Assembly: GCA_043228905.1 (NCBI GenBank)
Contig: JBHGNT010000001.1
Coordinates: 8,742,001 to 8,806,000, forward strand
DNA: 64,000 nt
DNA from: Azolla caroliniana
Lineage: Eukaryota > Plantae > Polypodiophyta
Direction of reading: 5' to 3'
This document shows, one piece after another, positions 10,813 to 63,131 of the stretch; position 1 is the stretch's first letter; each line of letters begins with the position of its first letter. The notes beneath the pieces were generated by a model that had not been told where the DNA came from, searched no databases, and saw nothing but the letters and a program-made list of their open reading frames with translations. The translations under genes were made by a program, and so were the position numbers.

Positions 10813-13800
10813 ACGTTTCCAAAATTTACGGCGGAAACTAGAACGGGGCCCCGTGGAGGGTGAGGCTCGGGAGACATTTCTAGCAGCATTATGCCGACCT
10901 ATACGGACCATGCTCAACAACAATAGCGTGAAAGGGGAAACAACCGATATGGTCATCGAACGAGCATTACAGCTCGAGCTGGACGACGAAGAGGAAAGGT
11001 TTTCTATGTCCTCATTACGACAAGTGTTACCTCAGGACGAGGAACAACATTTTCATCAAGCAATCCAGTGCACGATTTGCTTGAATTTGTGGCATTCCGT
11101 AGTGGAGTGCAACATGCGAATCCACTGCCCAATCTGTCACTCGAAGGCTCACACAGTTGAGCAGTGCGAATACAATATGTTGAATAGAGCCGCTCTCACA
11201 GTACGCAACATGGACACACAACGTCCCCCATGCCGTACTGAACAAAGGAGGCAAGAAGACCGACCACGGTATATGGATTGCAACCCACATGACGACCGAC
11301 ACTACCGGAACCACCGGAATCACAACGATTCCGAGGAAGAAGAGCTAGAGGATGAGGACTACCGTGGTCCCCCCAGATATGCTAAAGGGGGTCAACGCTA
11401 TGAGAATCACCGACCGACAAACAAAAGTGGTGGCTTCAATGGACCTCGTGGAAAGCAGTGGCAATATCGGGACCGCCGGCGATATGACAAAAGCTCGGAC
11501 GATGACCGGCACCAAGAACCACGTCGGGACTAACAACAACCACCACGTACGCTCCGACAAACGAAGCCGAACTGTGAGGAGCAAGTCGCACCGAGGGGTC
11601 GACACACACCACCAGGGGCCGAGAAGGGCGAATCTAGCATCCATTGTTTTGTTTGTCAACATCCTGGACATTATGCCACACAATGCCCAGTATGCAAGGG
11701 CAAGGGGCCCGCCGTCAATACGATTACGGCAGAAGTGCAGCACGTCACGACACGTTAGCAAACAAAAATGGCTGATTGGGCCGCGCAAGATGAGATACGA
11801 CGAACAACCCAGGCATGGGTTGAAAATGCAAACGCGACAAATACAGAACGCATGCGGAAGGAATCCGCAAAAACGATGGAGCTAGTGGAGGACGAAGGAC
11901 CGGCCCCGGACCCCATTTGGCAAGCACTGGCAGGCTTTGAGATAACGTTAACCATGGAGAAGCTGCTGCAACTAGTCCCATGCTTCTGCTAGACCGTGGA
12001 AGAGCAGGTGATGGGCATACCCGGGGTGAGCGTCGCTACGAATTTCACGGACCGTCTGTAGTGGATCAACACAACCCGGCTATTACGTTGATATTACACG
12101 ATCAAGAAATTGTGGGATTCGTAATCGGTGGCGGCTCGGGCGTTAATGTAATTAGCGCGAAAACATGCGAGCAGTTAGGAATTTCAGAATGGGAGGCTTG
12201 CCCGTTCTGGCTCTGTATGGCAGATACCCACTCAGTACGACCATTGGGGTTGATACGCAAGGTAGGCATTATCGTGGGAGGACATCGCTTCGACATCTCG
12301 GCGGTAGTCCTCGCCCTAGACGCCCCAGGGGCGTACCATGTGCTGTTGGGCAGACCGTGGCTTCGTGCAGCGAATATCAAGCAGAGCTGGCAGCACAAGT
12401 GTACCAGTTTTCGACATGGACGCACCAAGGTTCGCGTACCAACGGAGGAAAGGGCGACACAATCCAAGGGTATAACACCATTATACGCGGAAGATATAAA
12501 TATGCTGGCTGGGGTGGATGATACAGAATTAGAGGCATACCTAGACGAGCACCCTCAGATTATTCCGCTATTCGAAATCGACGTCATCGCAACCGCGACA
12601 GAATATGCCACGACCACTACTCTCCATGACGAGGCTTACGAACCAAACCCAGAGTCAATATTAGAACTAAGCAGAGCACGGGCAGCGTTCAAGAGGGAAA
12701 TGGAAATTTCACGACGAGTCACCGTCTCAACCCTGGAAGAAGTAAACGTGGGTACGACGTCAAAACTTCGTTTCCTCTCCATCGCAAAAGAATTAAGGCC
12801 GGACCAGAGAGACGTGATGATCGAACTACTCAAGAAATATAAAGATGTGTTCGCCTGGGCTCACGAGGACATGAAGGGGTTAGATCCGAAGTTCTATCAA
12901 CATAAGATTAATTTAGCAACCGACGCAAAACTGGTCCAGCAGCGTCGCTACCGCATGAACCCGAACTATGCGACCCGTGTAAAAGAAGAAATTGACAAAC
13001 TTCTAAAGGCGGGATTCATACGACCAGTTAAACAAGCCACATGGTTAAGTACGATAGTTACTGTAGTCGTTCCAAAGAAAAACGGCAAAATACGAGTATG
13101 CGTGGATTACCTGTTGAGAACTTGACGTTCCTTATGTCCGACGCTCGGCCACAACCGAGATTCTTTACATACACAGAAAAACAGGTAATGAAACGCGACA
13201 CAAAAGAGGAGAAATGATACACAGGAGGTATGTTGGGATTTCGGTCCCTCCGGATGGGATGTCCGGAGATGAATGACGGCAAGCCCGGTTGCGGTTACGG
13301 AACCGGATGATGAAGAGTACCCGGCATGAAGCCGGATGAAGAGTACCCGGATACGGATCCGGATGATGAAGTACCCGGATACGGATCCGGATGATGAAGA
13401 CCCCGGCTACGGAGCTGGATGCTGAAGACCCCGGCTACGGAGCCGGATGCTGAAGACCCCGGCTACGGAGCCGGATGACGAATGTACCCGGAGAGAGATC
13501 CGGATGCGGGGACATATTTGTGAATATGTTTGCCAAGAGCCCTTGAGGCTATATTTGTAAATAGCCCGAAAGTCATATGTGTATAAATATGACTTAGGGC
13601 AAACAGTTTGTTGTTGTTGCTCATTTTATGTTTTCAGCCGAGAGAGCGAAGTGAGAGCAGCCGAGAGAGAGAGAGAGAGAGAAAGGAAGAGGTCGACGCC
13701 TCTGTGTATTACCGCCGCCTGTGGCGAAGACAGTGAGCTCAAGGTTGTTGCCTTGTAGCTTCACCATTGTACATCTCAGTGTATAGTGATAGTTGGAGTT

Positions 13801-13951
13801 TGAGGACTCCCGTGGTTTTTCCCATTTAGGGTTTTCCACGTAAAATCCCAGTGTACCTTTTCTCTCTACTGTCCTCGTGCACTTTGTATTTCCCAATTTC
13901 TGTGAGTTGATCCTATTCCTCGGTTGTGGCCGAGCACTGTTCATAACAAAG

Positions 13952-13963
13952 TGGTATCAGAGC
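13952..13963 (+). promoter_or_regulatory. Primer-binding site, tRNA-iMet
   Basis: TGGTATCAGAGC, 3 nt after the 5' LTR. Confidence 0.95.
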
Positions 13964-13979
13964 GACGGTAACACAGAAA

Positions 13980-18917: not shown

Positions 18918-18960
<43 letters not shown>

Positions 18961-21436: not shown

Positions 21437-21473
<37 letters not shown>

Positions 21474-24400
21474 TCTGTTGTAACCGTAGCCAGGCGAAGA
21501 TTGTGAGCACGAGGTTGTTGCCTCTGTGTTCCCCTGATGTATTCCTCTTAGACATAGTGATAGTTTGGAGCTTGTGGGCTCCCGTGCTTTTTCCTGTTTA
21601 GGGTTTTCCATGTAAACATATTGTGTACTCTCTTTCAGTGTTTTCTTGTGAATACGTGCATCTATCTCCACATTCCCATTTCTGTGTTTGTAATTCTCAA
21701 TGAAGGAATTGAAGACTTGGTTGTGGCCGAGCATAACTCCACATAATCTCTCAATCTGGTATCAGAGCAAAATGACACAGAAAAATGGAAGATTTGTTGG
21801 GAGGCATGTTCAAGCTCACCGGCTCCAACTGCTCAGTGTGGAAGTCGAAGATGAGGGACATGCTCATGGTTAAAGATCTTTGGTTGCCGGTTCAGTTCGG
21901 GGACAAGAGATCAGACAAGATCGACGCCACGATATGGGAGGTGATGCATATGAAGACAACGGCGTACATACGGTGCTTCATCGATATGAGCCTGTACAAC
22001 AACTTCAATGAGGAGAGTAAGGCTCATGAGCTTTGGGAGAAGATCGGCATTATGTTTCAAAACAAAAATGTTGTAAATCGGGTTTCGGTATTTTGGATGC
22101 TAGTGAGGCTCCGGTACCAAGAGGGCTCCAGTATGGCAGAGCACATGAATGCCTTCCAGGGGCTGATTCACCAAGCAACATCATTGGAAGTACCTCTTGC
22201 TGATGAGGTACTAGCACTACTCCTGTTCGGTTCCCTCCTAGATAGCTGGGAGACGTTGGTTGTCACTTTGGGCAACGCCAGGCCGGAAGGGAAGTAGATG
22301 TCCCTAGCAAGAGTCAAGTCAAGCTTGCTAGATGAGGAGGCGCGTCGGAAAGACAAGGATACGAGCTCTGACTCCAAAGCGCTCCTTACCGAATCGGAAC
22401 GCGGAAGACAAAGGAAGCGGAGTCCCCAGAACCGGGAAAAGTCAGGGACAAGGTCAAAGTCAAGGGGGAGGACCACTTGCTTCTATTGCGGCAAGCCGGG
22501 ACACATCCAAAAGAATTGTCAGCATTTCTGGAAACCGACAGTACCGATTCGAAGCGGTCACCGGACCGGAACGGTAAAGACCGGAGGGGACTGGACCGGA
22601 AGGGAACGACGACAATCACAGCAAGTGAAGAGGAGTTGATGCTCATCACCGAGGAGAGTGAGTTGAACCTTGCCGGCGACGAGACAACGTGGGTTGTCGA
22701 TTCCGGAGCATCGTTCCACCTGACCCCGGACCGGAAATGCTTCTCAGCCTACACAGCCGGTGATCACGGTTGTGTCCGGATGGGGAATGAAGGTACGTGC
22801 CGAATTATCGGCATAGGAGATGTGTGGTTGACAACACCAACCGGATGCAAGCTGCTGCTGAAGGATGTCCGACACGTTCCGGAGGTTCGACTGAACCTGA
22901 TATCACAGGTCAGCTAGATGATGAAGGCTACATGGGTAGCATCCAGAACAGTGTCATGAAGTTCAGCAAGGGGAGCCTGATAGTGGTTCGGGTCCGTAAG
23001 GTCAACACACTGTACCTGATGAATGCCCGGTTATGCCCGGAAGAAGTGAACATTGCTTCCGACATGCCGGTGAGCTGTGGCACAAGAGATTGTGTCACAT
23101 GAGCGTGAAGGGGATGAAGAGGCTTGCCGATGACAACCTCATTCCGGTGAAGAACGTGCATTTTGAGAGGTGCACCGACTGCCAAGCCGGCAAGCAAAAC
23201 CGGACCTCCTTCCGATCAAGGCTACCAATGAGACATACTGCACCACTGGAGTTGGTGCATACTGATGTGTGTCACGTGGACACCAAGTCACATTGCGGAG
23301 CGCAGTACTTTGTGACGTTCATAGATGACCACAATCGGAAGTTGTGGGCCACACCGTTGAAGACGAAGGATCAGGTGCTATCCGTCCAGAAGCTGAAGGC
23401 GGTTCGAGCAGATAATGGAGAAGAATACCGGGGGCAGTTCGAGGAGTACTACCGCTCGAAGGGAATCCAACTCGAATTTACCGTGCCGAAGACGCCGGAA
23501 CTAAACAGGCTGGCCGAGAGGATGAACCAGACCATAATGGAGAGGGTTCGGAGTATGCTGGCACATGCAAAGTTACCCAAGACGTTTTGGGTTGAGGTGT
23601 TGGCGACAACGACATACGTTGTCGCGTTATTACGCGCGTGCGTGGAGAACAAGGCGGGACCACTGGGGTCTTGGACCGAGGAATAGGTGAGAAAAGGGGG
23701 GAGAAAGAGAGAGACGCTCACACACGTATAGACAAAGAAGTGCACGGGGACGCGGCCCAACAACACAGGAGACACGAGTTGAGAACACTAGCGTATGTAT
23801 ATAAAAGATGTATGTATTTGTATGTATGCAGACGACTCGAACGGTTATAGCCGATCAGGTCGGCGAGATGGATGCCGACGCCTGATCACCCACGCACACA
23901 TGGGATCAAGATGGAGATTCTTCCGGAAGCACACGGGCGTTCCACAGAGCAGAATCAGCCTCCTGAGAACCTGCACAAAAGAAAGCTATGGAGAACGACA
24001 GAGAAGAAGAGCTCGGTCCCAATCTGACAGCACTTCGTCCCCTCTAGCGCGCGATATCTCTCTCTCCCCCCCCCCCCCGTCTCCCTCTCTTTTATAGCTC
24101 AAGGAGGGAGACCGTTGTCGTGAAGATTTTCGTCCACGAGCGGAAACCCGAGCAACGAGAGCCAAAGAGCGATGTGCAACGTTGCACACATACATAATGT
24201 ATTTGTAATAATAATAGGGGAAAAGGGTATGGTGCTAGAAATGCCCCATAAGATCCCTAAGGTATAAAGGCGATGTGGTCTTATGCGCACATCCACGCGA
24301 GAGAGAGAGAGAGAGAGGTACTATGCGGTACATAGGTACCTAGTTGTTTGTGAGGAGGTGGGAGTTAAGGGGTCATCAATCTCACCCTCCCCAAATCAAG

Positions 24401-24811
24401 GCAAATATCCCCTTGTAAACGGTCTTCTCTCCTTGTGCTATAAAAGGAGAGGGAAGGTACCATTGTGAGCGTTGCCTATTTTGAGTGTGCGAGGTATACC
24501 ACATAGGTCGAGCGTTAGGGTTAGGGTTAGGGTTTCTTTATCTTGATCTTGATCTTCATCGGTTAGGGTTTCGAGTAGTCGTTTGGTGCTGCCTATGTGG
24601 CCACCATTTTGTAATCGTTCACTTCGTTTTAATATATCTTGTTGATCATCTTGTCTCCATCTTCCTCTTGTTCGATCTAATCTCTTGTTCATTCTTCTTC
24701 TTCTCGAGCAAAGCTTCCATTCCACGTCCGATTCCTTCTCCTCTACTCCTTAGTCCAAGACCCCCGTGGTCCCGCCCTTCTCCACACACGCGGGTAGCAA
24801 CGTGACATATT

Positions 24812-24829
24812 TGGTGAACCCGATGTGAA
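24812..24829 (+). promoter_or_regulatory. Primer-binding site, tRNA-Trp-like
   Basis: TGGTGAACCCGATGTGAA, 4 nt after the LTR; complementary (1 mismatch) to the plant tRNA-Trp 3' end as recalled (...TTCACGTCGGGTTCACCA). Confidence 0.85.
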
Positions 24830-26968
24830 TAGGCGGTAGAGGAGTAGAAGATGAGGGGGTCGGACCTTGCAGAAGCCATGGCTTTGGCTGTAGACCGTAT
24901 AGTGAGTGCGCGCAAAGGCACCGGCGCCCTTGATAGGGCTATCGAGGCGGTTGTTGGTACGATCGGCCGGTTTAGTGGGAAGGATGCCACGAGCTACTTG
25001 GCATCCTACCGGGCTGAGATGGTAATGAGGGACATTCCAGAAGAGAGGCATCTAGCCGGATTCCCTCGAATGGCGATGCCGGGTATCCATACGGAGGTGC
25101 TCGAGGTACGGGCCGAGAGCCGGACCTGGGAGGAGTTCGAAGGTCGGTTCCTCGAAAGATACGGGCTTGAAGATGCGCTTCGACTTTCGAAGCGGGACTT
25201 CATGGAGTGGGTGGAGACCCCCAACAAAGGAAGGAACGCGTCAGTGCTCTTTCGGGAGTTTGAGGAACGCTTCGCGTGCCTCTCAGTGCTTGACCGGACC
25301 GTTCTGGACACAAGCCGTGTCCTATTGTTTGTTAAGTCGGTTGACGAGCGGGATCGGGAGCTGGTAGGCCTCCTATCGGAGACTGATGACGGGCTGAAGG
25401 CCGACTGGGCTGTGGTGAAAAGGGTCTGTGGCCATTTCGACAAACGGCGGGAATGGGTTGACAAAGGATCGACAAGGGCGGGCTCTGTTGCAGCAAAGAA
25501 GCTCGAGCCAACACCACCAACACGAAGGGAAGAGACCCGAGATTGGCTCGAGACCGGGTTGGCTTCAACCGGCATGGTCAAGGGCTCATCCGGGGGAGCA
25601 ACTCTAGAGGAGCTGACGCGGATGGTAAAGGATCTCCAGATCGCCCAGGCACGGAGGGATGGTGGCGAACAAGCCCGTGACCTACGACCTCTGGCTGAAA
25701 ACAGGTGCATATGGTGTGACGTGGTTGGGCACATCCGGAAGGACTGCGGGGACTTCGCCGAGGCGATGAGAAGCAACGTGGTGTACCTGTGGAACGGTCG
25801 GGTGCACGCCAGCGAGACCCGAAGGGCCCTGAACCTGAACGTCGGGCGAGGGGGTATGAAAAGGCTGATGGAGGAGGCGGCGGCTCGTCACGCGGAGACC
25901 GTCCACTACTCAGCGTCGGCTGGTATTCGGGTCGGAGGTGGCGAGGCCCCGAAGACGAACAAAGCCGGGTTCTGGCCGACGATGCTGGAAGGCCTCGCCG
26001 GCGCACGGCTGAGGAAAGAAGATGTGGACCGCGCAGAAAAACGGGTCCGGGAGGAAACCGGGTAGAGTGACCCGGTGGAAGAAAAGACGGGCTTCGTCGA
26101 AGCCGGTTGTCAAAACTACGAGGCTCTGGTGGAGGGCAAGCGGGTAGGGAAAACCGGAGGGGCCGGGCCCTCGCAACGATATGAAACTCGATTCGGGCAA
26201 AGACGGAATGAGGCCGTTGTAACCGGCGCCCAGGATAATCCCAAGAAGGGCGGGTACCGGCTAGGCAAAGAAATCGAAAGATCCACGGACCTGCGAAGAG
26301 GTCCTGGAAGAACGAATCCTCGAAAACAAGGTGGAGCTATTGCTGAGGGAAGTGCTCGGGATCGCTAAGAAGGAGTTCCACGACTCCATCGTAGACTTGG
26401 TGAAGAGGAAGAGGCTGTCGACAGAGACAGAACCGGAGAAGCCGGTGGAGGTGCTAACGACGCACATAGAGGACATGGCGCTGGAAGACGAGTTGGCGGA
26501 GAGCCACTATTCGAGGCCGCACTAGGCCAGAGCGACCACGGAGACCCTCGTGAAGATCGGAGATGTTCATGAACCGGTGGTGGCGTTGGTGGACCATGGT
26601 TCCGAAATCAATTTGATGTCCATGGACTTCTATAAGAAGGGAAAATGGCCGATCAACACTAAGCACGGGTAGAAAATACAGGCGGCGATGCGTGCCACCG
26701 AAGAACTGCATGGAGCCTGCCCGAACGTACGAGTAAAGATCGGCGATGTCGAGATTGACCAACACTTGTTCGTGGAGGAGACGTCCTCACATCCGGGTAT
26801 ACTAGGAGAACCGTACATCACGACATCACGGATGGAGACCAAGGTGCTGGACAACGGCTCGGCCTATGCAAGGGTCAAGAGCCAGGATGGGCGTCACTCG
26901 GTCCAGTTCTTGACGGTGAGACCGAACCATGAGAGGAACCGCGAGACCCTTGGGGGCGAAAACCGGGA

Positions 26969-27034
26969 GGATTTTTGAAGAGGGCTATCAAGGCGTGGTG
27001 CCGCGATAGTCCGGACACTCCGGGAAAACCCCAC
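26969..27034 (+). promoter_or_regulatory. Candidate -1 ribosomal frameshift signal (G_GAT_TTT + stop + stem/pseudoknot)
   Basis: Heptamer 26969-26975, 6-nt spacer, stem GGGCTATC (26982-26989)/GATAGTCC (27005-27012); pol lies in the -1 frame; conserved at 37091-37026 on the minus strand. Confidence 0.75.
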
Positions 27035-28497
27035 AAGTGTATGATAGCGAAGAAAACCTCTGCTATAAGTATGGAATTTTGGTTCTCCGACAACGGAGGG
27101 TGTACGATAGTCGACGTTGTAGGCCAGAAGAAGAGAAGGGCGGAGGAGCGACTTCGGGCATGTGGCGTCCTCGACCTCGGAGAGGAAATCAACGGAGCCG
27201 TGGAGGCGGTCTCTTTCGACGATACCTTGGGGGAGCTGCGGGAGGTAGTCGGAGGAGTCCTTAAAGAGGACCAGACGATTCCGGTATGTTCGGAAGAGAT
27301 GTACGAAAGCATCGCGGACTTCAGTAGAGGGCTCGAGTCGGATCGGACGGCCCGGGTGGACACGAAGTACAAGACTGTGAACTGGAAGGTGAGGCCAGTC
27401 GCGGCTCCCTTACCGGAGGGCAACGAGTTGCGAATAAAGGGGGTTGCGTCGGACCCGAGTTTACGAAATCCGGCCCGCATAAGACACACGTTCACCGACA
27501 TAACGTTGCGCGAGCTCAAAATCGGTGGGGGCGGCTTCCTACTGCTGGCGGAAGAGGACCGTTTTCGGTGAATGCTCGGAAGGCATGGGACGGCTTTTCC
27601 ATTCTCACCAGAGGAGATCGGGTGTGTAGACCCGACAGTCGTGGAACCGATGGTGATATTCATGGTACCGCACGTGCCATGGAGTCTCAAACCGATTCCA
27701 GTACCCAGAGCTCACATCCCGAAGCTGATGGAGTTGTTAAAGGAGAAGGTCGAGATGGGAATCCTCGAACCGTCGAGTGCCCCATGCTCGAATCGGTGGT
27801 TTACCGTGCCGAAGAAGGACAGCACGCTGCGCTTTATTCAAGACCTGCAACCGGTCAACAAGGTGACCATTCGAAACGCAGGAATTGGACCGACAATAGA
27901 CGAGTTCGCGGAGGCCTTCGCCGGAAGGTCGATTTACTCGGTCGGTGATCTCTACTCGGGGTATGATCAGTTCCAGCTTGCCGTAGAGAGCAGAGACATC
28001 ACGACAATGCGAACTCCTCTCGGCCTAGTACGGATGTGTACCCTGTCGCAAGGAGGGACGAACTCGGTGGCTCACATGGTGAACACAATGAACAAACTGC
28101 TGAGGGATTGTATCCCGGACATCACCATGCCGTTTTTGGACGACGTCCCAATCAAGGGATGCCCGGTGGAGGAAAGGGACGAGACGATCAGACCGGACGG
28201 ATGCCGGAAATTCGTGGCGACGCACATCGATGACTGCGAGAAGGTGCTGCAGAGGTTGGAGGGAGCGAGGCTCACCTTCTCCGGGGGAAAATCGGCCTTC
28301 GGGCAATCAGAGATCATGGTCATCGGAGACCTATGCGGGCCGTACAGCCGGAAACCGTCTCCAGTTAAGGTAGAAGCCATTTTCGCGATGAAGAACGACT
28401 GTAGCTCGGTCACGGAGGTTCGGAGGTTCTTGGGAGCGTGCGCGTTCTACCACATATGGATCCTGCATTACGCTCACGTCGCGGAGCCGTTATACGG

Positions 28498-30146
28498 TGT
28501 CGAGGTATTCCTCGCGGGTGCGTGGAATGAGGCGGGACCTCGGGGGTCCTGTACCGAAGAGTAAGAGAGAAAGAGAAGAGACCCACTACGTGCGAGCGTA
28601 GATTCACAGGGACACGGCCCTTCGACGCAAAGACGCGAATGGGACAGCGACACAGAAAGACACGAAAGTATGTATGTATTGACAAGACAAACAACAAGAA
28701 CACGAAGACAACAAACACGAAGTCGGTTACAACCGAACAGGCCGGCGAACAGATGCCGATACCTGCTCGTAAACGCACAGAGGGGAAAGAGTAGGTTGGA
28801 GGTGCTGCCGGAAGCACTCGAGCATTCCTCAGAGCAGCGCGAGCCTCCCGAAACCTGCACAGCAGGAAGCTATGGCGCTTGCAACCGGAAAGAGAGAGAG
28901 AGAGAGAGAAGCCTTCGCACGCAAACCGACAACACTTCGTCCTCGACTCCCCGCGATCCCTCTACCCTCCTCGTCTCCCTCCCTTTATAGGCAAGGAAGG
29001 AGCCGTTTCCCCTTTACTCCCTACCTACCGAATCTACCTAGGATCTCCTATGTACAACTTAAGGCGCACGTGCATGAAGAGTCGGTTCCTACGCTCCGGT
29101 GCACCGATTCTGCTCGTGGACGGTTTTCTTCACGACATCCGCCCCCACCTAACCGCGCATCCACCGGCATGCGTCAATTGTGTTAGGACGGAGAAAACCG
29201 GTCTAGCCTTGATTCCCCGCCCGTCGGTTCTTCCTCGGTTTCGTATCGTTCATTGTCCCGGTCCAGGTCAACCGGATCCGGCTCGTCGTCGTGACGCTTC
29301 TTGAACGTCTTGATCCGCTTCCCAGCTACCGGTATCGCCATTCTCGTACCGTCGAGTTCCGCCAGATGGTACGTCCCGTTGTCGTTGGCGCTTTGTACCA
29401 CGTAAGGCCCGAACCATCTTCTTGCGAACTTCCGTGTCGCTCGGTGCTGGTTGTCGAGGCTGCTGTCGTAGACTAGCACCTAGTCGCCTTCCTCGATCTT
29501 CTTTGGTCGGAGCCGGTGCGTCCGGTCGAACCGGGCTTTGTTCCTCGTCCTGGCCACCCGAAGCTTTTCCGCAGCCTGCTCCACGTCCTCCGGTCTCCGC
29601 TCGAGCTGTCGTATGCGCGCCGTCAACAGTTCCTCCCGGCTCATCTCGTCTCTCTAGTCCACGGTTGCCCATGAGGAGACCGTACGTTCGATCGGCATGA
29701 TCGGCTTCTGCCCAAACATGAGCTCTGCCGGCATGAATCCGGTTACCGAACTGTGCGTAGTCCGGTCAGCCCACAACGCGTAAGGCAGTAGCCGCGGCCA
29801 GTTCCCGACTTGACCTCCGCATGCCCGAACTAACGCCTTGACGATCGGTCCGTGTCCGCGCTCCACCTTCCCATTTGCCTCTGGATTGTACGCAGTGGTA
29901 AGCGAGAGCTTGACCCCTAACCGGTCGAACAGCTCCTCGGCCTCCTCGGCGTCCAACTCCCCGCGATCAGCCATGATCTTCCCGACGCACCCGTACCGGC
30001 ATATCACGTCCTCGAGCAGGAACCGACATACGGCCACAGTCGTTTTGTTCTGAAGGGCCCGGCCTTCCACCTGGTTCGTTAGATCTTCCCGAGCCAGGAC
30101 CAGATACCGCATCTGTCCTACTCCTATCGGCATCGTTACCAGGTCG
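28498..30146 (-). mobile_element. Family-G copy G3, 3' part: 3' LTR 28498-29137, PPT, integrase core and C-terminus
   Basis: LTR ends CTTCACGACA; PPT complement TCCGCCCCCACCTAA; DLVTMP, ADRGE, NGKVERGH, RWFGPY. Confidence 0.9.
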
Positions 30147-33100
30147 TCACGTACGCCGTCATCGTCGGTCAATCGTTGTCGCCCATCCGCCGTATGCATG
30201 CTTGTGTCTCGACCCTCCACCGGCCGTATTGCATGCGTCTCGTGTCGCACTTCCGCCATAGACTCGACCTCCGCATCGGTCTCCAACTCCTCGCCGCCAC
30301 CCACCGTTTCCTCATTCTCCTTTCGATCCGCGACCGTCGATGCCTCACGGGTAGGTGTGGAGGGTTCTTCCCACTCTCGGTCCACCACCGAGTCCTCGCC
30401 TCTCAAAGGCTCAATCGGTCCACCGTTTCCGGTCACTCGTTGACGCTCTCTCGGATGCATGCTCGTTCTTGGGCCCTTCACCGACCGTAGTGCATGCTTC
30501 GTATTACGCCCTTCATTCGCCGTAGACCCGACCTCCGCGTCGGCCACTTCTTCCTTTGTCACCGTAGCCCGTTCCGACCCGAGCTCGCCATCTTGGACCC
30601 GCTCGTCCATCATCTCATACCGGATACCCGCTCCGATAACTTTGTCCGCTTCGGCCTCCAACTCCTCGCTGCCACCCACCGTCTCTCCGGTCTCACGTTG
30701 ATCCGCAACCGCCGAAGTCTCTAGAATGGGTGTGGAAGGTCCCTCTCACTCTCGGTCTTCTAGCAAGCCGTGATCACCGTGCCCACTAGGCCTCCTCAAT
30801 ACGCTCACCGGCTCTCGTCGCGTGTTGTGACCCGTCCTCCCCGATCTCCAATCATGCCGACTTAGCCTTCGCCCGGATCGGTCTCGGCCGATCGAGTTTC
30901 GGTTTGGTCGGCTCCCTTCCGTAATCGTAACCGGCCGGTACATGTTTGTCCGCGCAAATCCGGCCTTGCCGGTTCTTCTTCGGTTTGGGCCCGGTTGATC
31001 GGACCCCGCTTCACCCTTCTTCCGCTCCGCCTCCCGGTCGGGTCGGATTACCGACCGGCTCATCTTTCGGTCGGGTCGGTTCCTGACTCGCTCCTTGATG
31101 CTGCTCTGAACCTCTCCTTCGGCCTTTTCGCACGTGCCCACTCTGGGCCTCTCATCCTCACAGCCACCGCCCATCTCTCCGGTCTTATGTCCGTGCTCGG
31201 GCGGTCGAGGGATCTCGCCTCCGTCCGCTACAAACCTTCTCTTCGTCGTCTCGGTTGCCCACCTTGCCGCCGCCACCGTCCGTCTCTCTAGGTCTCACAC
31301 CGGCTCTCGGGCCGGTTGCCGGAGTCTCTAGGACCGGTGTGTGGAAGGTCACGGAACCGCCGCTCGTCTCCTCTTCTTCCTCGATTTCGCAAGCCTCGAG
31401 TATGCTCGCGAAATCCTCGTAGAACGTTTCGGGCAACCGCGTCCCAAAACTTTCGCCCACTCTCGAAGCGGCGTCCATTGCTCCGTAGATATCGGCCTTA
31501 TCCATGGCTGTCCTCTTTCCACAAGTCGAGAGGGTCGCTCGCTCCGCACCCTCTCCCACATCGTTGCCGTGGTCGCCCGCCTTGCCGCCGCCACCGTTCG
31601 TTACCCTAGGTCTCACGCGGGCACTCGGGCCGGCCGCCGGGGTCTCTTGAACCGGTGCGTGTAAGGTAGCAACGCCGCCGCTCGTCGATGCTATGCCCGT
31701 AGCCACCTCCATTCGGACATCGTCATCCGTGGCTAACACGCCTCCGTATATGCAAGCATCAATTATGCTTGCCGCCTCCTCTTCCACGGTCTCCTTACCG
31801 TTGTCTCGGTTGCCCGCCTTGCCGCCGTCACCGTCCGTCACTCTAGGTCTCACACCGGCTCTCGTGCCGGATGCCGGAGTCTCTAGGACCAGTGTGTGGA
31901 AGGTCGCGGCACCGCCGCTTGTCTCCTCCTCACTCGATGTTTCGGGCCTCCATGCCCGAACTCCCTCATTTCCGTTCGAACCGGCGATCGCCGCCTCACC
32001 ATCCCCGACCTCGTCCTCGGTCGATCTTTCTCCGCATGTCGAGAGGGTGGCTCGCTCCGCACCCTCTCCTGTGGTACCGATGTACCATTCTCTTTCGGCC
32101 TCCTCATCCTCCGATCCGCTCAGCCCCGACTCCGCAATAAGCCCTTCTTCGGTTTCGATTTGTGCCTCTACAATCTCGTACGCTTCCCGCACAAAGGCTT
32201 CAATGTCGAGCTCCTCCGAACCGATTTGCGTTGAGGCTCTTCCGGCGGTAGTGCGTAGTCGGTCGCCGCTCTCTCTTCTCCGCCGCTCGCGGGCCGCGTT
32301 GTGGCCGAGCACCTCTCATCGCATTGTATGCACGCCCATTCCACCTCGTTCCAATCTTCGGTGAGGCCGTACGCCCCTTCATTGTCTTCGAGGTAGGGAA
32401 AAATGGCCATTCTCCCTCATTCGTTGACCGACTTCAAGAATAGTGGGACCTTGTCCGCCCCCACCGATTCTTGATCCCGGACCGAAAGTTGGGAAAACCG
32501 GAGATCGAACTCCCGGAATGCCTTCATTGCGCTTCGAGGAGCCTTTGCCGACGACACCCATAGATCGAAGTCGCGTCGATCGTACTTGTACGCCTCTTCC
32601 CGTCCTTCTCTCCTTCTTGCGAAATCCCTTGCCATTCTCGTAATTACTTCCGCGATGTCTTCGGCTTCCATCTCCTTCCTCCCTTGCCGCCTCTTCACGT
32701 CGGGTTCACCAAATATGTCGCGTTGTTACGCGCGTGCGTGGAGAACAAGGCGGGACCACCGGGGTCTTGGACCGAGGAATAGGTGAGGAAAAGAGAGAGA
32801 GAGAGAGAGAGAGAGAGACGCTCACTCACGTATAGACAAAGAAGCGCACGGGGACGCGTCACAACAACACAGGAGTTGCGAGTTGAGAACACTAGAGTGT
32901 GTATGTAAATATAGGCATGTATTTGTATGTATGCAGACGACTCGAACGTTTACAGCCGACCAGGTCGGCGAGGTGGGTGCCGACGCCTGATCACCCACGC
33001 ACACAGGAGAGCAAGATGAAGATTCTGCCGGAAGCACACAAGCGTTCCACGGAGCAGAATTAGCCTCTCGAGAACCTGCGCAAAAGAAAGCTATGGAGAA

Positions 33101-33412
33101 CGACAGAGAAGAAGAGCTCGGTCCCAGTCCGACAGCACTTCGTTACTTCTAGCGCGCGATCCCCTTCTCTCCCCGGTCTCCCTCTCTTTTATAGCTCAAG
33201 GAGGGACGCCGTTTCACTCGTTTACATCACATTAAATCTCTGTCCTTTCGGAGACAGAGATACTCCTTGATTTCCCTTACAGAATATTGCTACTTGGGAT
33301 TTAACCTTTGTGCCTACCTATCTACTATACGACAAGGGACGTGCCCACGTGTAAGGGTCGGTTCACACACACTATACACGGTTTGCGCCTGGGGACGGTT
33401 TTCTTCACGACA
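30147..33412 (-). mobile_element. Non-autonomous family-G derivative G4, 5' part: 5' LTR 32716-33412, PBS, divergent gag, acidic repeat region
   Basis: PBS 32694-32711 TGGTGAACCCGACGTGAA; GADKVPLFLKSV...GLTEDW; repeated FHTPVLETPA...VRPR.TDGGGGK module shared with 6814-10055. Confidence 0.85.
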
Positions 33413-33658
33413 TCATTTCACCCGTTTACATCACATTAATTCTCTCTATAGAATATTGCTGCCTAGGATTCGACTTTTGTGCCTACCTATCTACTATACA
33501 ACAAAGGGGCGTGCCCACGTGTAAGGGCCGGTTCACACACGCTATACACAGTTTGTGCTTGGGGACGGTTTTCTTCACGACATCCGCCCCCACCTAACCG
33601 CGCATCTACCGGTATGCGCCAAAATTGGGTTCCTACTGGAGATAACCGGCCCTTGCTT

Positions 33659-36600: not shown

Positions 36601-37085
36601 CGTGTGTCTTATACGGGCCGGATTTCGTAAACTCGGGTCCGACGCAACCCCCTTTATTCGCAACTCGCTGCCCTCCGGCAAGGGAGCCGCGACTGGCCTC
36701 ACCTTCCGGTCCACAGTCCTGTACCTCGTGTCCACCCGGGCCGTCCGATCCAACTCGATCCCTCTACTGAAGTCCGCGATGACTTCGTACATCCTTTCCG
36801 AACATACCGGAATCGTCCAGTCCTCTTTAAGGACTCCTCCGACTACCTCTCGCAGCTCCCCCAAGGTATCGTCGAAAGAGACCGCCTCCACGGCTCCGTT
36901 GATTTCCTCTCCAGGGCCGAGGATACCACATGCCCGAAGTCGCTCCTCCGCCCTTTTCTTCTTCCGGCCAACAACGTCGACTATCGTACACCCTCCGTAT
37001 AGGTCTTCTTCGCTATCGTACACTTGTGGGGTTTTCCCGGAGTGTCCGGACTATCGCGGCCCCACGCCTTGATAGCCCTCTCTAA
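33659..37085 (-). pseudogene. Family-G pol (RT-RH-INT) of G1, frameshifted; no chromodomain
   Basis: LPQGGTYSV, FLDDVPIKG, YVTVDTSPTG, YAQVKRELWG, AGHRG...CESCQ, VDLVTMP, ADRGE. Confidence 0.92.
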
Positions 37086-39208: not shown

Positions 39209-42200
39209 CTTCTACTCCTCTGCCGCCTGTTCACATCGGGTTCACCAAAAGATGTCGCGTTATTACGCGCGTGCGTGGAGAACAAGGCGGGACCAATGGG
39301 GTCTTGGACCGAGGAATAGGTGAGAAAAGGGGGGAGAAAGAGAGAGACGCTCACACACGTATAGACAAAGAAGTGCATGGGGACGCGGCCCAACAACACA
39401 GGAGACACGAGTTGAGAACACTAGCGTATGTATATAAAATATGTATGTATTTGTATGTATGCAGATGACTCAAACGGTTACAGCCGATCAGGTCGGCGAG
39501 ATGGATGTTGACGCCTGATCACCCACGCACACAGGGGAGCAAGATGGAGATTCTGCCGGAAGCACACGGGCGTTCCGAAGAAGAGCTCGGTCCCAGTCCG
39601 ACAGCACTTCGTCCCCTCTAGCGCGCGATATATCTCTCCCCCCCCCCCCCCGTCTCCCTCTCTTTTATAGCTCAAGGAGGGAGACCGTTTCACCCGTTTA
39701 CATCACATTAATTCTCTCTATAGAATATTGTTGCCTAGGATTCGACTTTTGTGCCTACCTATCTACTATACAACAAAGGGGTGTGCCCACGTGTAAGGGC
39801 CGGTTCACACACGCTATACACGGTTTGTGCCTGGGGACGGTTTTCTTCACGACAACGTGATAAACAGATCACCCTGAGTACCCTTGGACGGAGACTCACC
39901 GCAGAAAGTATGGACTGGTAAGGATGTGTCTTACCGGCATCTGAAGGTGTTCGGGTGTCTCGCTTATGTACAAGTGGCAAAGGACCGGAGAGCAAAGTTG
40001 GACCCAAAGTCCCGGCCTTGCATATTCCTCAGATACGGCGATGATGAGTTCGGCTACCAAGTGTGGGATCCGATCGACAAGAAGGTTTTCCGGAGTCAAG
40101 ATATTATCTTCATGGAGGACAAGACCCTTGCCGACTGGGAGTCGGAGAAGAAGATAATGAACTCTGAGTCGACTGGTAAGAATCGATTCGATGATGTGCA
40201 GACCCAACCGACAAAGAGCCGGTTAACACTCGAAGAACCGGCCGGTTTCGGAGACAACACCGAACCGGCAGAAGAAGAAGAAGAAAAAGTTGAAACTGGA
40301 ACCGGCCAATACCCCGAATCGGATTCGAATGAAGAACAAACAGAGGAGCCGGTTGCCGAAAGCCAAAGACGAAGATATCCTCTCAGAGAGAGAAGGCCCC
40401 CCCGGAGATTTCCGGATGCAGAGCGTGTGTTGCTAACCGATGAGGGGGAGCCGGAAAGCTTCGAAGAAGCAAAGGAGGACACCCACACCCGCAAGTGGTT
40501 GAGTGCCATGCAGGACGAAATTGATTCCCTGCATGAGAACCACAGGTATGAATTGGTGGAGTTGCCGAAAGGAAAGAGGGCACTCCGAAACAAGTGGGTG
40601 TACAAGTTGAAACCGGGAGATGCCGGCAAAACCCCAAGATACAAAGCTAGGATTGTGGTGAAGGGGTTCCAGTAGAAGAAGAGCATGGACCTTGAGGTAG
40701 AGCAACTACACGTGAAGACGACGTTCCTTCATGGCGACCTCGAAGAAAGGATTTGTGAAGAAAGGGAAGGAGCACTTGGTTTGCCGGTTGAAGAAGAGCC
40801 TCTACGGTTTGAAGCAGGCTCCCCGGCAATGGTACCGGAAGTTCGACTCCTTCATGACCGACCAAGGGTACCACAAGACGCAGGCCGATCACTGCGTATT
40901 TGTGAAGAAATACAACGGAAGAGACTTCATGATACTGCTCCTATATGTGGACGACATGTTGATCGTCGGACAGGACCAAGCAAAGATTCGGATGTTGAAG
41001 AAGGCCCTTAACCGGACCTTCTCAATGAAAGACTTGGGTCCGGCAAGACAGATACTGGGGATGCATATCATCTGGGACCGGTCAAAGAAGCAATTGTGGC
41101 TGTCACAGGAGAAGTATGTGACAAAGGTGCTTCAGCGGTTCAACATGTTAGATGTTAAACCAGTCAGATCGACACTCCCGGCAAAGTGCAGGTTATCCGG
41201 TAAGCAAAGCCTGAAGACGAAGCCAGAGAAGGCGGATATGATGAAGATACCATATGCCTCTGCCGTCGGGAGCTTAATGTACGCAATGGTGTGTACCCGA
41301 CCGGATATCGGATACGCAGTCGGAGTGGTAAGCCGGTTTATGAGCAATCCCGGCAAGGAGCACTGGAATGTGGTAAAATGGATACTCCGGTACTTGAAAG
41401 GCACTTGAAGTATGTGTCTCCGATTCGGCTCCGGTAAACCCCAACTTGACGGTTTCACAGATTCGGATATGTCGGCTGATGTAGATACCAACCGGTCAAC
41501 ATCTGGATACGTCATGACATATGCAGGGGGAGCTGTTTCGTGGCAATCGAGGCTGCAGAAGATGGTTGCATTGTCAACCATGGAGGCGGAGTACATGGCA
41601 GTTGTGGAAGCCGGCAAGGAAATATTATGGATGAAGGACTTCATCGAAGAGCTAGGGATCCGACAAGAGGAATAGCAACTCTAATGCAATAGTCAGAGTG
41701 CCATCCACCTTGCGAAGAACGCGGCGTATCATTCCAGGACAAAGCACATCCAGCGGAGGTACCACTGGATCCGAGAGCGAGTGGAAGATTGAGAGTTCGT
41801 GCTGACGAAGATCCACACGGAGGAGAACGGGTCAGACATGTTGACTAAGGTGCTGGCACTCGACAAGCTAGACGCATGCCGGAAGCGGATCGGACTGACG
41901 AGGCATCCCATGCCGGAGTGAAGGGGGAGTTTGTTAGGATTTCGATCCCTCCGGATGGGATATGAGTACCCGGCAAGGAAAACTGGGTGAGAACCGGATG
42001 ACGTAGACCCGGTGAGAACCTCTCATCGGATGAAGGGACATATATGTAAATATGTCTTTGTTAGCCCATTGTAGCTACATTTGTAAATAGCCCGAAAGTC
42101 ATATTAGTATAAATATAACCTAGGGAAAACTCTTGGAGTTGTTGTCATTATTTTGTATAGAGTTATTGGTGTAACTACTATACAATGCGTTGTAGAGCGA

Positions 42201-52256: not shown

Positions 52257-52335
<79 letters not shown>

Positions 52336-56778: not shown

Positions 56779-57238
56779 TTTTTTTTAAACCAAAACAACA
56801 CTACTTCGCATTAGTTAGCAAACAAAATAGAACAAAGTTCAACCTGAATCCATAGTGGGATCAATATATACAAAATGGAGGAACAACTCCAAAACCAACA
56901 AAAAAAACAACAAAACTCACGCGGCCCTTATCCCCAACAAAATTGAAATAAACCCCAATTTACCCCCGTCTCTACGTATCCCAACGTACTCTTTTATAAC
57001 AAAGTTATCCGGGTAACACGACTCTGATAACCCACTTGTGCTCCAACTATACATACATATTTACATCATATGTACAATATTAGGAGTCATTGGTGGAAAT
57101 AGCCACCTAGGCGCTTGATAGTTCCCCTTAGGCCTCGTCGAAGATTTGACCACCATCGGAGAACCACCCCATTTCAACAAGAACTATGACCTTGCCCTTT
57201 CTGCTTCATTTGATTCCCCCTAAATCGAGTCATACCAT
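56779..57238 (-). mobile_element. 3' end of a second LINE copy of the same family, interrupted by a family-G LTR
   Basis: CATTAGTTAGCAAAC and CCCTTTCTGCTTCAT shared with 47990-48300; T-run at 56779. Confidence 0.85.
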
Positions 57239-57675
57239 TGTCGTGGGGAATTCCGACTACTAGGAGAAAAGGAGCCGGAGAGCGCGGGAACAGGGGTGTG
57301 ACGGATGCACACAAAGTTGTCTTTAAGTATAAAACATGTGTAAATAACATTGAACTAGTAAGTACTAGGGAGTAGGATTTTGATGGGTACTTTAATGTTC
57401 CACAAAAGAGAAGAATAAAGCATGTGTGGGGAGGAAACCAAGGAAGAATCGCTGACAAAATCGGTTGTCTTAAACATAATGTAACAACCTCCCCTTGTGC
57501 TATAAAAGGGGAGGTTTTGAACTGTTGCGGAATTCCACAATTTTGGAGAAGGAGGCACTGCTGGACCGAGCTCTGCAGGCTTACTTCCCCTTCTCTGTCT
57601 TCTGGTTTCCCGTCGTCATGTTGTGAGGCCTCCATTTCGCGCTAGTAGCATGTGTGCTTCCAATCGGAGGCTCGC

Positions 57676-57708
<33 letters not shown>

Positions 57709-59190
57709 TGTGTGTGTGTGTGTGTGTAACGAGCTCGAAGCTCTTTCCCGGCCGCATCCGGATCTAATCTTTCTTTGTTCTCTGTTAATCATTATTTTGT
57801 TGATTCTATCCTTGTGTTCAAGCATTACCTCTTTGTCTCTGTTGGTCTCAAGTTTGTTGTGCCTGAGCCCGTGCGCTCTTCCATTGAGATCTGGTCGTTG
57901 ATCCGGAACAATATATGTCTCTGAGCCTGTGCGCTCACCATTTGGCATCGAGGACTTGATCCGGATCGGATACGTGTTCGGAAACCGATATGGCGAAGTT
58001 ATCTGGAAACCGAACAAGACAACCTTCCTCTCTCACCGGCTCCTTGGTCTGAGACCCCGGTGGTCCCACCCCATTTCAACACACACACGACATCTATGGT
58101 GAACCTGACGTGAAAAGGGCAACAGAGGAGTCTAAAGATGAGGGGGAGCGAACTAGCAAAGGCGATGGCGGTGGCCGTCGACCGCATAGTAAATGCGCGG
58201 GAGAGCGCAGGTGGCCTCAACAGGGCCATAGAGATGATAGTCGGCACGATAGGCCGATTTAATGGGAAGGATGTGACAAGCTATCTGGAGGCCTACCGGG
58301 CTGAAATGATAATGAGGGACATCCTGGAGGACAGACGGTTGTCCAGATTCCAGCGGATAGTAATGTTGAACACCCACGCGGAGGTGCTCGAGATCCAAGC
58401 CAACTGTTGGAGTTGGCCAGAGATCGAGGGACGACTCCTCAAGAGATATGGTTTCGACGACTCGCTCTAGTTGTCGAAGCGGGAGGTCATGGAGTGGGTC
58501 GAGAGCCCGGGAAAAGGGAGGAATATATCGGCGCTTCTCTAGGAGTTCGAAAAACGATTCTCTCGACTCTCGGCGTTGGACCGGACTATGCACAATACAA
58601 GCAAGCTCCTATTGTTCATCAAGTCAGTAGATGCATTGGATCAGGAGAAGGTGGGTCTCCTCTTGGAGACGGACAAAGGGATCACGGCCGACTGGGTCAT
58701 TGTCGAAAGAGTTTGTAGCCGTTTCAACAAGCGGCCGGAATGGAATGACATGGGGGCGTTAACAGCCGGCCCGACTACCAGGAACAGGTCGGAGGAGATT
58801 CCGACTCGGTCGGAATATACTAGGAGGTGGCTCGAGCCGGGCGCGGCTCCAATCGATATGGTCCCTCGAACTAGTATGAGACCCGGAGTGGGCTGAAGAA
58901 GAATGACGGAGGCCCAATCGGCCCACAGGAGAAGACGAAGTTTTCGAGCTTCCGATTGAGCTCGGAGATAGAGAGAGAGACAGACCTACAGAAGGTCTTG
59001 GAGGAATGAATCCTCGACAGCCTGGTGGAACTCACCCTGAGGGAGGTGCTAGGAATAGCAAAGGAGTTCCACAATTCTATTGTCGACCTAATGAAGAGAA
59101 AGCAGCTCTCGTTAGAGCCGGAGCCGGAGAAGCTGGTCGAAGTGAAGGCGGCCCACATCCAAGAGGCGGCGATGGAAGAAGAGTTTTGGG
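57239..59190 (+). mobile_element. Old family-G relative: 5' LTR 57239-58092, PBS 58097-58114, internally deleted gag from 58138
   Basis: TGTCGTGG...CACGACA; TGGTGAACCTGACGTGAA; MRGSELAKAMAVAVDRIV. Confidence 0.88.
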
Positions 59191-59793: not shown

Positions 59794-60984
59794 TGTCATG
59801 GATAGAAAATATACACAAGAGAGTAGACGATAATCAAAGGGATGAGTTGATTATTGAAAGACTCCGTAACTGGTGTTGTTTACCTTGATTGTAATCTAGG
59901 TGAACACACATATTTATACAAGTTCTGAGATTGAATATCTCTAGAATATACCCATCTAGAATATTTCTAGAATATTCTGAATGTACTATATTCTAGACTA
60001 TACAATATTAAACCATATACAATTTATATGTAACTTAAAGGTTTCTAAATGGTTTATCTAAAACTAAGTATTGGGTGTTATAAGTTAGAGGTTCGAGTTT
60101 AGATGTGACATTATGCCCCCCCCCCCCCCCCCTTATGTCGCCTTTCCCAACCGGTCGTTGGTTTGTGGGGATACCGGAGATGAAAATCCTGGACCACCTC
60201 TAGGGCATTTTGTGGTTCCCACGTGGCATCAGACAGGGGGTAACCCTTCCACAAGACAAGGTATTGCATGTGTCGACGGTGCAAATGTGAGTCAAGTATT
60301 TGGCCGACTTCGTATTCCTCCCCGGTCGTCAATTGCACAGGTGGTGGTGGTGGGGCCTAGCGTCCTGGGAGTTGCGAAGCATAATGGGGTTCGAGGAGGG
60401 AGACATGAAAAACATCATGAATCTAGAAGTGGGAACGGAAGGGCCATCCGGAAGGCAATGGGATTGATGCGCTCAACTATATGGAATGGTCCCAACTTCT
60501 TGTAATCAAGTTTCGTACATGGACGGGTAGTAGAGATGTGTCATCGTAACAACCAGACCATGTCACCGACCACAAAGGGTGGAGTGGCAAAGCGATGGCA
60601 ATCAACGTGCTTCTTGTATTGTTCGCCAATGAGACTAAGTTCTAAGGAGAAGTCATGATGTAGCTCTTTTAAAACGCGAGCTCGAGCCTCTACCGAAGGG
60701 TTCACAGAAGTGGTAGGGAGGGGAATGTTGAACCGTGGATGTAAACCATAGTTTGCAAAGAAGGGAATGACGCCAGTCAATGCATGGAGAGAATTATTGT
60801 AGGCAAATTCTGCAAGGTGAAAGTAAGGTGACCCAATCATCTTGCTGGTAATTAACTGAGCACCAAAGATATTGCTCAAGGATTTGGTTGATGCGATCCG
60901 TCTGACCATCAGTTTGGGGGTGATAGGCGGAGGCCAACTTGACGGAGATGCCTAAAGTGTGCAAAAGCAAAGCCTAAACTTGAC

Positions 60985-61493
60985 GGAGATTCCTAGAATA
61001 GAATATACCGAGGAAATTCTAGGTAATGCCTAAACTTCACCGAATATTGAGGGCAATTCGGCACTGGTTGGGTGTTGTGGAGGGTTGTTGCAGACTATCT
61101 CGAATCTTGTTTGTTGGCAAGAGTATGGAGGACAAGTGGGGGACGAGTAGGGAACGGAAATTAGTATTAGTAATTAATTAGTTATAATTATGATAGGAAC
61201 TGACAGATACGGAATAGTTGCACCGATCTGGATCCGGACCGATTCGTAGGTGGTTGCTGGTATGACACCGTTTTGTAATCAGAACTGGAGGCCTATAAAA
61301 GGATCTAGAAAGCAATGTCATGAGCACGGAAGTAATATAAGTTGAATTTGGATTTCAGTATTTTGTATCTTGTCTACTACCGTTTGTGCTTCATTTTGTG
61401 TCTTACGCGTGTCAATCATTTTGTATCTATTATCATTCTGGAACAGTCGGATTAGAATCATATCTGTGCCGGTTAATATCCTACCTGTAACCA
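60985..61493. repeat. Possible LTR remnant replacing part of the chromovirus integrase
   Basis: Non-coding block with TATAAAA at ~61294 between INT and RH pieces; termini and TSD not resolved. Confidence 0.4.
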
Positions 61494-62049
61494 CCCCTTT
61501 GGTGAAGTGATCCAAAAGGACACCCTGTGTTTGTGGCTAGTTCAGCCCAGGATAAGTATCATTGGCAAATGCATCAGTCGTGGATGCATCGATGATCTGT
61601 TGGAGTAACGAATCATCCTGCAACATACAAGTGGCAAAAAGATGTAATTGGTTGGGTTTCAACAAACAGCGAGATTGTTGAGCAAGAGCAGCATCCCCGG
61701 GGTGGATTGCAAGTTCGGCTCAACGAGAAAGGGCATCGACCTTCCCATGTTGGCCACCAGGCCGAAATATGATCTCAAGATAATAGCCAGTGAGAAATGT
61801 AGACCAATAGGCCTGCCTTTGATTCAAACTACGAGTGGTGGAAAAATAAACTAAATTCTTATGATTAGTTACTACTTGGACACGGTGTTGTGCGATGACC
61901 AAGTATGGGCGCCATTCTTCAAAGGCAACAATGATAGCGGCAATCTCCTTGTCGTATATTGGATAATGGATTTTGAATTTTATGAATTTGCGGGAATAAT
62001 AGGGCATTGGGTGCATGATGATGGTGCCGTCCGCCTGGGATAAGATGGT

Positions 62050-62504
62050 TGTTGAGAGACAAGCTCAACATCGGCCAGATCGGTTGAGAAGGTCGAGGAC
62101 CGGATCGGTTGGGACCGATCGGTTAGGCCAGACCGGTGCATAAAACGGATGCGTAAACCAGTACGCAAACCGGTGCGTAGGAAGGCCGTATCGGTCCGTA
62201 AACCGAAAGGCCGTTAGAAAGATATTCCTCGTAAGAAATAGTTTTGGGAGTAAGAGTCGAGGCTCATTTATGAGCAGTCAAGTACTATCAATACTTGTGT
62301 CAGCCTGATTGTCCGGGCTTGTATAAAAGTGCTCACTGAGCACATCCTATGTACAGATTTGAGTATTATTTTTTGAATTAAGTTCTTGTGTTTACTCTCT
62401 CTCTCTGTCTCTCCCGTGCGTACTATGCAAACCTAAGCTTTCCATTAAACCTGCGTCTTCTGTTGTTCGGTTTCCTATATTGCTTCCGCACGACATTCTT
62501 TTCA
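62050..62504 (+). repeat. Solo LTR (455 bp) inserted in the chromovirus RNase H
   Basis: TG...CA termini; TSD ATGGT (62045-62049)/ATGGC (62505-62509); removal restores FAIGA-ILSQ. Confidence 0.9.
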
Positions 62505-63131
62505 ATGGCGCCAATTGCGAAGTCAGTGGCATCGGTTTCGACTTGGAAGGGTCTTGCGGGGTCAACATGTAGAAGCAGGGGGCTAGTGATGAATGTGTGT
62601 TTGAGTGAGCCGAACACATTTTGTGCCGTCTAGGTCCATAAAAAGGGACTACCTTTGTGGGTGAGGGCGATAAGAGGTTGGGCTAGGGTGGAAAACCCCT
62701 TGATGAAGCGACGGTAACAATTTGCGGAGCCGAGGAAGGATTGCACATCTTTAAGTTACCCACTCCTGAATGACTGAGACCTTCTTCATATCCATCGTGA
62801 TGCCAGTGGGCGAGGTGATGTAGCCCAAGAATTCAATCTAGGTACGGTCGAACTCATATTTCTCACTTTTGGCATAAAGGTCGTGCTCCCGAAGTTTACC
62901 AAGAACTAATCGGGCATGGCGGGTGTGCTCCGCCATGTTTAGCAAAAAACTGAGAATATCATCAAGGTAGATGACCATGAAATGATCAAGATATTCCCGG
63001 AATATATCGTTCATCATATGCACTGAAAAACAGTTGGGGCGTTAGTAAGGCCAAAAGGCATTACCTTGTATTCGAAATGCCCATACCTTGATCGGAATGC
63101 AGTTTTCCATTCATCATCGGGCTTGATGCGT

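What the first reader, a model, noticed from the sequence alone, without database searches (positions are those of the whole stretch)
10813..63131. Family G inserts at 4-bp sites centred on CpG
Seen: flanks are ACGT (10813), ACGT/ACGT (23616, 39855; proven 4-bp TSD because removal restores the copia frame), CCGT (24112; other side TCAT at 33413), ACGG (28494), CCAT (57235, where the sister LINE reads TCGT) and GCGT (63128, family assignment less certain). All six sites fit NCGN, allowing for deamination. The copia insertions here have 5-bp TSDs with no consensus. Inference: a sequence- or methyl-CpG-specific integrase without a chromodomain, which would steer insertions into other TEs.
Basis: partly seen in the sequence, partly recalled or inferred. 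Interest (0 to 1): 0.72.

Follow-up and report, generated by a model that had tools for sequence, protein, structure and literature searches.

The report
Phygy-like retrotransposon inserting at CpG sites
A common jumping gene in this plant genome inserts almost only at the DNA letters CG, a habit already described for its likely relatives in moss; whether it also senses DNA methylation there is untested.

Summary
Observation confirmed genome-wide, but the phenomenon is published. Family G is a chromodomain-less Ty3/gypsy retrotransposon. Of 1521 exact LTR starts not preceded by the polypurine tract, 1357 (89%) have CG at the centre of the 4-bp flank (background 3.2%); 97 more have CA/TG. Exact duplications were 4 bp in 38 of 53 elements, never 3, 5 or 6. 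In 18 of 19 resolvable CA-flanked copies the other flank reads CG, so CA/TG arises by later deamination. The motif is VCGB (1297 of 1357). Neumann et al. 2019 list '4 bp (100%) (NCGN)', tRNA-Trp priming and no extra domain for the moss lineage Phygy; family G meets all three. Direct phylogenetic placement with Phygy was not testable. Flank composition equals that of random VCGB sites (p 0.94), and the excess of repeats over that null is not significant. CpG targeting alone therefore explains most steering into TEs. A methylation requirement is neither shown nor excluded. Verdict: new member of a known kind, low to moderate interest.

The parts
10056..10812 (+). 3' LTR of family G element G4 (no Pfam match in its internal ORFs); its 5' LTR lies 5327 bases upstream of the window
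10813..10816 (.). TSD ACGT, matched by ACGT before the upstream 5' LTR
23616..23619 (.). left TSD ACGT of G1, inside a copia integrase region
23620..39854 (-). family G element G1: 5' LTR 39253-39854, tRNA-Trp PBS, DUF4100-bearing gag region and RT-RH-IN in broken frames 33662-39184, 3' LTR split (23620-24115 and 33417-33582); LTRs 97% alike
39855..39858 (.). right TSD ACGT of G1
24112..24115 (.). target site CCGT in G1's 3' LTR
   Evidence: empty site in the 5' LTR
24116..28497 (+). G2: 5' LTR 24116-24807 plus gag-RT part (92% to G1), cut off at ACGG 28494-28497
28498..33412 (-). G3: chimeric block (3' LTR and integrase tail of one subfamily; internal part and 5' LTR of another; LTRs 79% alike)
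33413..33416 (.). TCAT, inferred twice-deaminated copy of CCGT
   Evidence: inference
57235..57238 (.). CCAT flank of G5; one side only
57239..58092 (+). 5' LTR of diverged family G element G5 with tRNA-Trp-type PBS
63128..63131 (.). TSD GCGT of G6, matched by GCGT after position 64367
63132..64000 (-). G6: internally deleted family G element running to 64367; only about 15 bases of the 3' LTR remain

Best explanation
Family G is a chromodomain-less, likely Phygy-lineage Ty3/gypsy retrotransposon that inserts at VCGB sites with a 4-bp duplication, most likely because its integrase reads the central CpG by sequence and tolerates, but does not need, methylation. Shown: 4-bp duplication, CG centre, avoidance of T first and A last, later CG-to-CA/TG decay, tRNA-Trp primer site, no reader domain in Pfam scans. 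Inferred: the 4-bp stagger needs a sharp kink at a pyrimidine-purine step, as in foamy virus and MLV-type integrases; added base contacts (candidates: the conserved C-terminal SH3 loop and the conserved DRGE glutamate) narrow that step to CG. Insertions then collect in TEs because TEs are the CpG-rich part of this genome.
For: 1357 of 1521 non-PPT LTR starts CG-centred, background 3.2%. 38 of 53 exact 4-bp duplications, none of 3, 5 or 6 bp. CA 50, TG 47, TA 2: symmetric, as single-strand deamination predicts. 18 of 19 resolved CA-flanked copies have CG on the other side. Other subfamilies: 15 CG, 3 CA, 1 TG of 19 non-PPT starts. VCGB 1297 of 1357 against 43% of background NCGN; the same T-first/A-last avoidance and central YR preference are reported for 4-bp retroviruses (PMC4422553 section 6). 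Flank GC 0.479 vs 0.477 for random VCGB sites, p 0.94. PBS complementary to the host's tRNA-Trp. No Chromo hit in 43 integrases at E 0.01. Phygy table: 4 bp, NCGN, tRNA-Trp, no extra domain.
Against: Flanks hit other repeats more often than random VCGB sites: 82% vs 67% with a database enriched for insertion neighbourhoods (p 3e-4) and 46% vs 36% with a neutral one (Fisher p 0.024); the excess lost significance only after block bootstrap over 20 stretches, which has low power. Family G ends stacked on one shared site occur and may exceed uniform targeting. Methylation is reported to create strong target preferences for an avian retroviral integrase in vitro (passage in PMC11054761). No methylome and no biochemistry were available. 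One copy has CCAT on both sides. The residue assignments are alignment-based only.
Confidence: 0.62

Rival explanations
1. The integrase needs or strongly prefers 5-methyl-CpG, so methylation itself is the targeting signal that replaces a chromodomain.
For: The host likely methylates these elements: LTR-pair transitions at CG 135 of 5041 and CHG 104 of 3003, against CHH 49 of 7981. Many targets lie in repeats, so methylated CpG is probably at least tolerated. Residual repeat excess. In vitro precedent.
Against: Flank GC and CpG density match the sequence-only null (p 0.94; CpG p 0.09); the repeat excess is not significant after block bootstrap. TpG, which carries a methyl group at the same place as 5mC (recalled), appears not to be used as a primary target (one search tested the CA strand only). 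No reader domain found.
Confidence: 0.17
2. Sequence readout of CpG plus a mild chromatin or host-factor bias (or purifying selection against genic insertions) toward heterochromatin.
For: Repeat-hit excess of about 9-15 points over the VCGB null; stacked insertions; Phygy-type domains reported enriched at centromeres of a liverwort (passage in PMC12885004).
Against: The excess is not robust. Copia, with no CG preference, shows a similar repeat share: 11 of 16 flanks, two of them duplicates.
Confidence: 0.17
3. Only DNA bendability is read (any central pyrimidine-purine step), and CG dominance reflects local composition.
For: Central YR is the general rule for 4-bp retroviral integrases.
Against: TA is found in 2 of 1521 flanks, and CA flanks trace back to CG in 18 of 19, although TG+CA steps outnumber CG about 2.3 to 1 in the flanks.
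Confidence: 0.04

Closest known systems
Phygy lineage, non-chromovirus Ty3/gypsy of Physcomitrella patens (Neumann et al. 2019, PMC6317226)
   Same: 4-bp TSD with NCGN, tRNA-Trp PBS, no extra domain, coding region fills the interior
   Different: Shorter (32 of 41 full copies 6.9-7.3 kb, against 7.7-10.0 kb); very likely another host; motif refined here to VCGB with C favoured at -5 (45 of 99); no direct sequence comparison was possible
Selgy lineage (Selaginella)
   Same: Non-chromovirus, 4-bp TSD, overlapping gag and pol frames
   Different: tRNA-Ala primer, about 5 kb, no NCGN preference listed
Drosophila errantiviruses of the gypsy, ZAM and Idefix subgroups (PMC5408687)
   Same: Gypsy-type integrases with palindromic 4-bp targets, one of them CGCG
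   Different: Animal lineage, fixed tetramers, no GPY/F motif; family G has a GPY-type C-terminal domain and a degenerate VCGB target
Prototype foamy virus and MLV-type integrases
   Same: Best sequence and fold matches with Ty3; 4-bp stagger, central YR, T and A avoided at the outer positions
   Different: Their YR preference is weak (63% above background); family G is near-obligate for CG

Membership tests
Ty3/gypsy | domain order RT-RH-IN | tested here: met
Phygy | 4-bp TSD | tested here: met
   38 of 53 exact at 4 bp, 0 at 3, 5 or 6
Phygy | NCGN target motif | tested here: met
   1357 of 1521
Phygy | PBS complementary to tRNA-Trp | tested here: met
   5 of 5 loci tested are tRNA-Trp(CCA); PBS of G1, G2, G3, G5 match its 3' end
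Phygy | no chromodomain or other extra domain, no extra ORF | tested here: met
   no ORF of 600 aa or more beyond gag and pol in 20 young copies
Phygy | RT-RH-INT groups with the P. patens reference elements | not testable with these tools
   Reference FASTA too large to read; no named Physcomitrium protein among the rows listed (47 of 47, 120 of 235, 120 of 194). The quick tree groups family G with Riccia elements at SH-aLRT 98, apart from chromodomain rows
Phygy | size 7.7-10.0 kb (descriptive, not diagnostic) | tested here: inconclusive
   3 of 41 full copies fall in that range; most are 6.9-7.3 kb
Chromovirus (Tcn1, Galadriel, Reina, Tekay, CRM) | chromodomain at the integrase C-terminus | tested here: not met
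   the same scan does find Chromo in another element at 42779
Selgy | tRNA-Ala PBS | tested here: not met
   PBS is tRNA-Trp
Tat (TatI: 4-bp TSD, tRNA-Trp) | additional archaeal-type RNase H | tested here: not met
   One RH region only in the 1167-aa pol scan at E up to 1; Pfam-level test, not the REXdb aRH profile

The most novel reading that the evidence does not exclude
The Phygy-type integrase is itself a methyl-CpG sensor: it cuts efficiently only at methylated VCGB, so it homes to silenced DNA with no chromodomain or host tether, and the lineage spans liverworts, mosses and ferns.
Probability: 0.17. Interest if true: 0.78.

Novelty: new member of a known kind. Interest (0 to 1): 0.3.

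Why it matters
NCGN targeting has appeared in the searches run here only as one sentence and one table cell. This genome holds thousands of copies, enough to refine the motif to VCGB and to show that non-CG flanks are decay products. It makes the mechanism testable: a near-obligate CpG integrase is rare among plant LTR elements. If methylation were required, it would be a new way for a transposon to avoid genes. The CpG in each duplication also acts as a small clock for methylation-driven decay.

Tried and rejected
5-bp or 6-bp duplication: 0 of 53. Chance or local CpG richness: 89% against 3.2% and 6.0%. First LTR-end detector too strict, 20 elements only, replaced. Regions were picked from the CG-flank list, so the CG share is biased; in the loci not picked by flank (L001-L080) 15 of 24 have an exact 4-bp duplication, all CG-centred. 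The repeat test used a biased database and was redone. Metagenome relatives: 80 loci, mostly without both LTR flanks; 4 gave a usable 5' flank (GCGG, CCGT, CCGC, ATGG), too few to test conservation. Bisulfite runs: none was listed. Kitamura 1992 not held. ESM Atlas gave only generic integrase clusters. The structure model (pLDDT 74) matched only integrases among the rows shown and shows no target contacts. The careful tree did not finish; only the quick tree is reported. Paper searches for a test of methylation dependence in Phygy listed none.

Full report
Setting. The window is a nest of LTR retrotransposons in a 523-Mb genome, G000.

Observation in the window. All flanks are as stated. Three are two-sided duplications: ACGT at 23616/39855, checked against uninterrupted sister copia copies; ACGT at 10813, whose partner LTR lies 5327 bases upstream; and GCGT at 63128, whose other end is at 64367. 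ACGG at 28494 matches the empty site in G1. CCAT at 57235 is one-sided. The block 24116-33412 is not a single insertion: both ends are LTR 5' termini, its two minus-strand LTRs are 79% alike, and its interior switches subfamily near 30000-30300. My inferred history: one element entered CCGT, a second entered the duplicated CCGT, a third entered the second at ACGG, and recombination between the first and third removed the part between them.

Genome-wide test. The exact 20-base LTR start occurs 2701 times; 1180 follow the polypurine tract. Of the other 1521, 1357 have CG at the centre of the 4-base flank, 50 CA, 47 TG and 2 TA. The 89% is a floor, because 3' LTRs with a mutated tract stay in the denominator. 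Background CG is 3.2% in 20 evenly spaced 10-kb stretches of contig C1. Other subfamilies have 4007 LTR starts; in the first 30, the 19 non-tract starts were 15 CG, 3 CA, 1 TG. Among 53 elements with both ends, 38 had an exact 4-bp duplication and none an exact 3-, 5- or 6-bp one; part of this set was chosen from the CG list, but the unselected part gives 15 of 24, all CG.

Deamination. I fetched the first 40 of 52 CA/TA-flanked starts. 21 could not be paired. Of 19 resolved, 14 had the same tetramer with CG on the other side, 4 had CG with a differing outer base (2 of these probably false partners), and 1 had CCAT twice. In 41 LTR pairs, transitions were 2.7% at CG, 3.5% at CHG and 0.6% at CHH, as expected for methylated plant repeats. 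The primary target is thus almost always CG.

Finer motif. 1297 of 1357 CG flanks are VCGB, against 43% of background NCGN. ACGT is commonest (32 of 99) and C is favoured one base outside (45 of 99). T-first/A-last avoidance and a central YR step are general for 4-bp retroviral integrases (PMC4422553, abstract and section 6). Family G narrows YR to CG.

Steering. 139 insertion flanks average GC 0.479, against 0.421 for random positions (p 2e-16) and 0.477 for random VCGB sites (p 0.94). Repeat hits were 82/67/43% (insertions, VCGB, random) with a biased database and 46/36/23% with a neutral one. After dropping the 40 CA-selected flanks and bootstrapping by stretch, the excess over VCGB was +0.09 (95% -0.08 to +0.26). 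CpG density explains most of the bias; a residual from methylation, chromatin or selection is not excluded. A pattern for two LTR ends sharing one site matched 140 times, many counted on both strands. In the first 20 loci (14 sites), 3 had LTR termini on both sides by script and about 5 more by eye.

Identity. An uninterrupted copy has a DUF4100-bearing gag frame overlapping an RT-RH-IN frame and no chromodomain; none of 43 aligned integrases hit Chromo. The PBS matches the host tRNA-Trp. Neumann et al. 2019 (PMC6317226; passages, Additional file 5 in full) state that Phygy elements prefer NCGN and list 4 bp (100%), tRNA-Trp and no extra domain. Jedlicka et al. (PMC6911290, passages) report GC-rich centres in 4-bp duplications and mostly 4-bp duplications in Phygy. 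Additional files 1 and 3 of Neumann could not be read and bear on membership. A quick tree places family G with Riccia elements, but it contains no named Phygy. That DUF4100 was defined from Physcomitrella proteins is my recollection; the paper search for it found nothing.

Mechanism. The integrase aligns best with foamy virus and Ty3 integrases by sequence and fold. In foamy virus, Ala188 and Arg329 contact target bases around a kinked YR step (PMC4005685, passages). Family G has glutamate at the Ala188 position (39 of 43, aspartate in 3) and a conserved Q-H-K stretch in the C-terminal loop. These are candidates only; Ala188 contacts bases outside the duplication, so the loop is the likelier CpG reader (inference). 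A methylation effect has precedent for an avian retroviral integrase in vitro (PMC11054761, passage; the original paper was not held). CG-containing targets are also known from Drosophila errantiviruses (PMC5408687, passages). PMC12885004 and PMC13469084 were seen as single passages; PMC6839031 passages were not relevant.

Verdict. Real, strong and already described at lineage level. New here are the scale, the VCGB refinement, the evidence that non-CG flanks are decay products, and the likely range beyond one moss. Interest 0.30; the methyl-sensor reading has probability about 0.17.

Noticed in passing
G000:C8:17796786-17823371, C16:4989495-5105657, C5:10105608-10112201: Clusters of matches to the tRNA-Trp 3' end, on C8 at about 1.2-kb spacing (62 matches genome-wide); only five other loci were confirmed as tRNA-Trp.
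   Followed up: no
G000 genome-wide; L346/L347, L351/L352, L355/L356: Two family G ends stacked on one shared 4-bp site, in all three orientations; the duplication regenerates a target. Whether the rate exceeds uniform targeting was not settled.
   Followed up: partly
window 39248-39252, 32712-32715, 24808-24811: Four to five bases lie between the LTR end and the tRNA-Trp PBS, while the polypurine tract abuts the other LTR directly; this may mean unequal end processing.
   Followed up: no
window 6780-10055, 30300-32400, 63147-63350: Family G elements with non-pol interiors: long open frames with no Pfam match and 120-bp tandem repeats at 8322-8779; probably non-autonomous derivatives.
   Followed up: partly
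L334/L335 (copia ending at about window 4758): Flanks read GTCGGACA and ATCGGACA, not a clean 5-bp duplication.
   Followed up: no
L068, L066: Full-length copies with 100% and 99.75% identical LTRs but non-matching flanks; recombination or assembly error.
   Followed up: no
window 19179-20693 and 42779-43414: Chromovirus RT-RH and SH3-chromodomain pieces on either side of the copia that itself holds G1: a nest at least four levels deep.
   Followed up: no
   Followed up: partly
protein P0019: A distant relative carries DUF4100 together with a PHD finger in its precomputed domains, a possible chromatin reader in a sister lineage.
   Followed up: no
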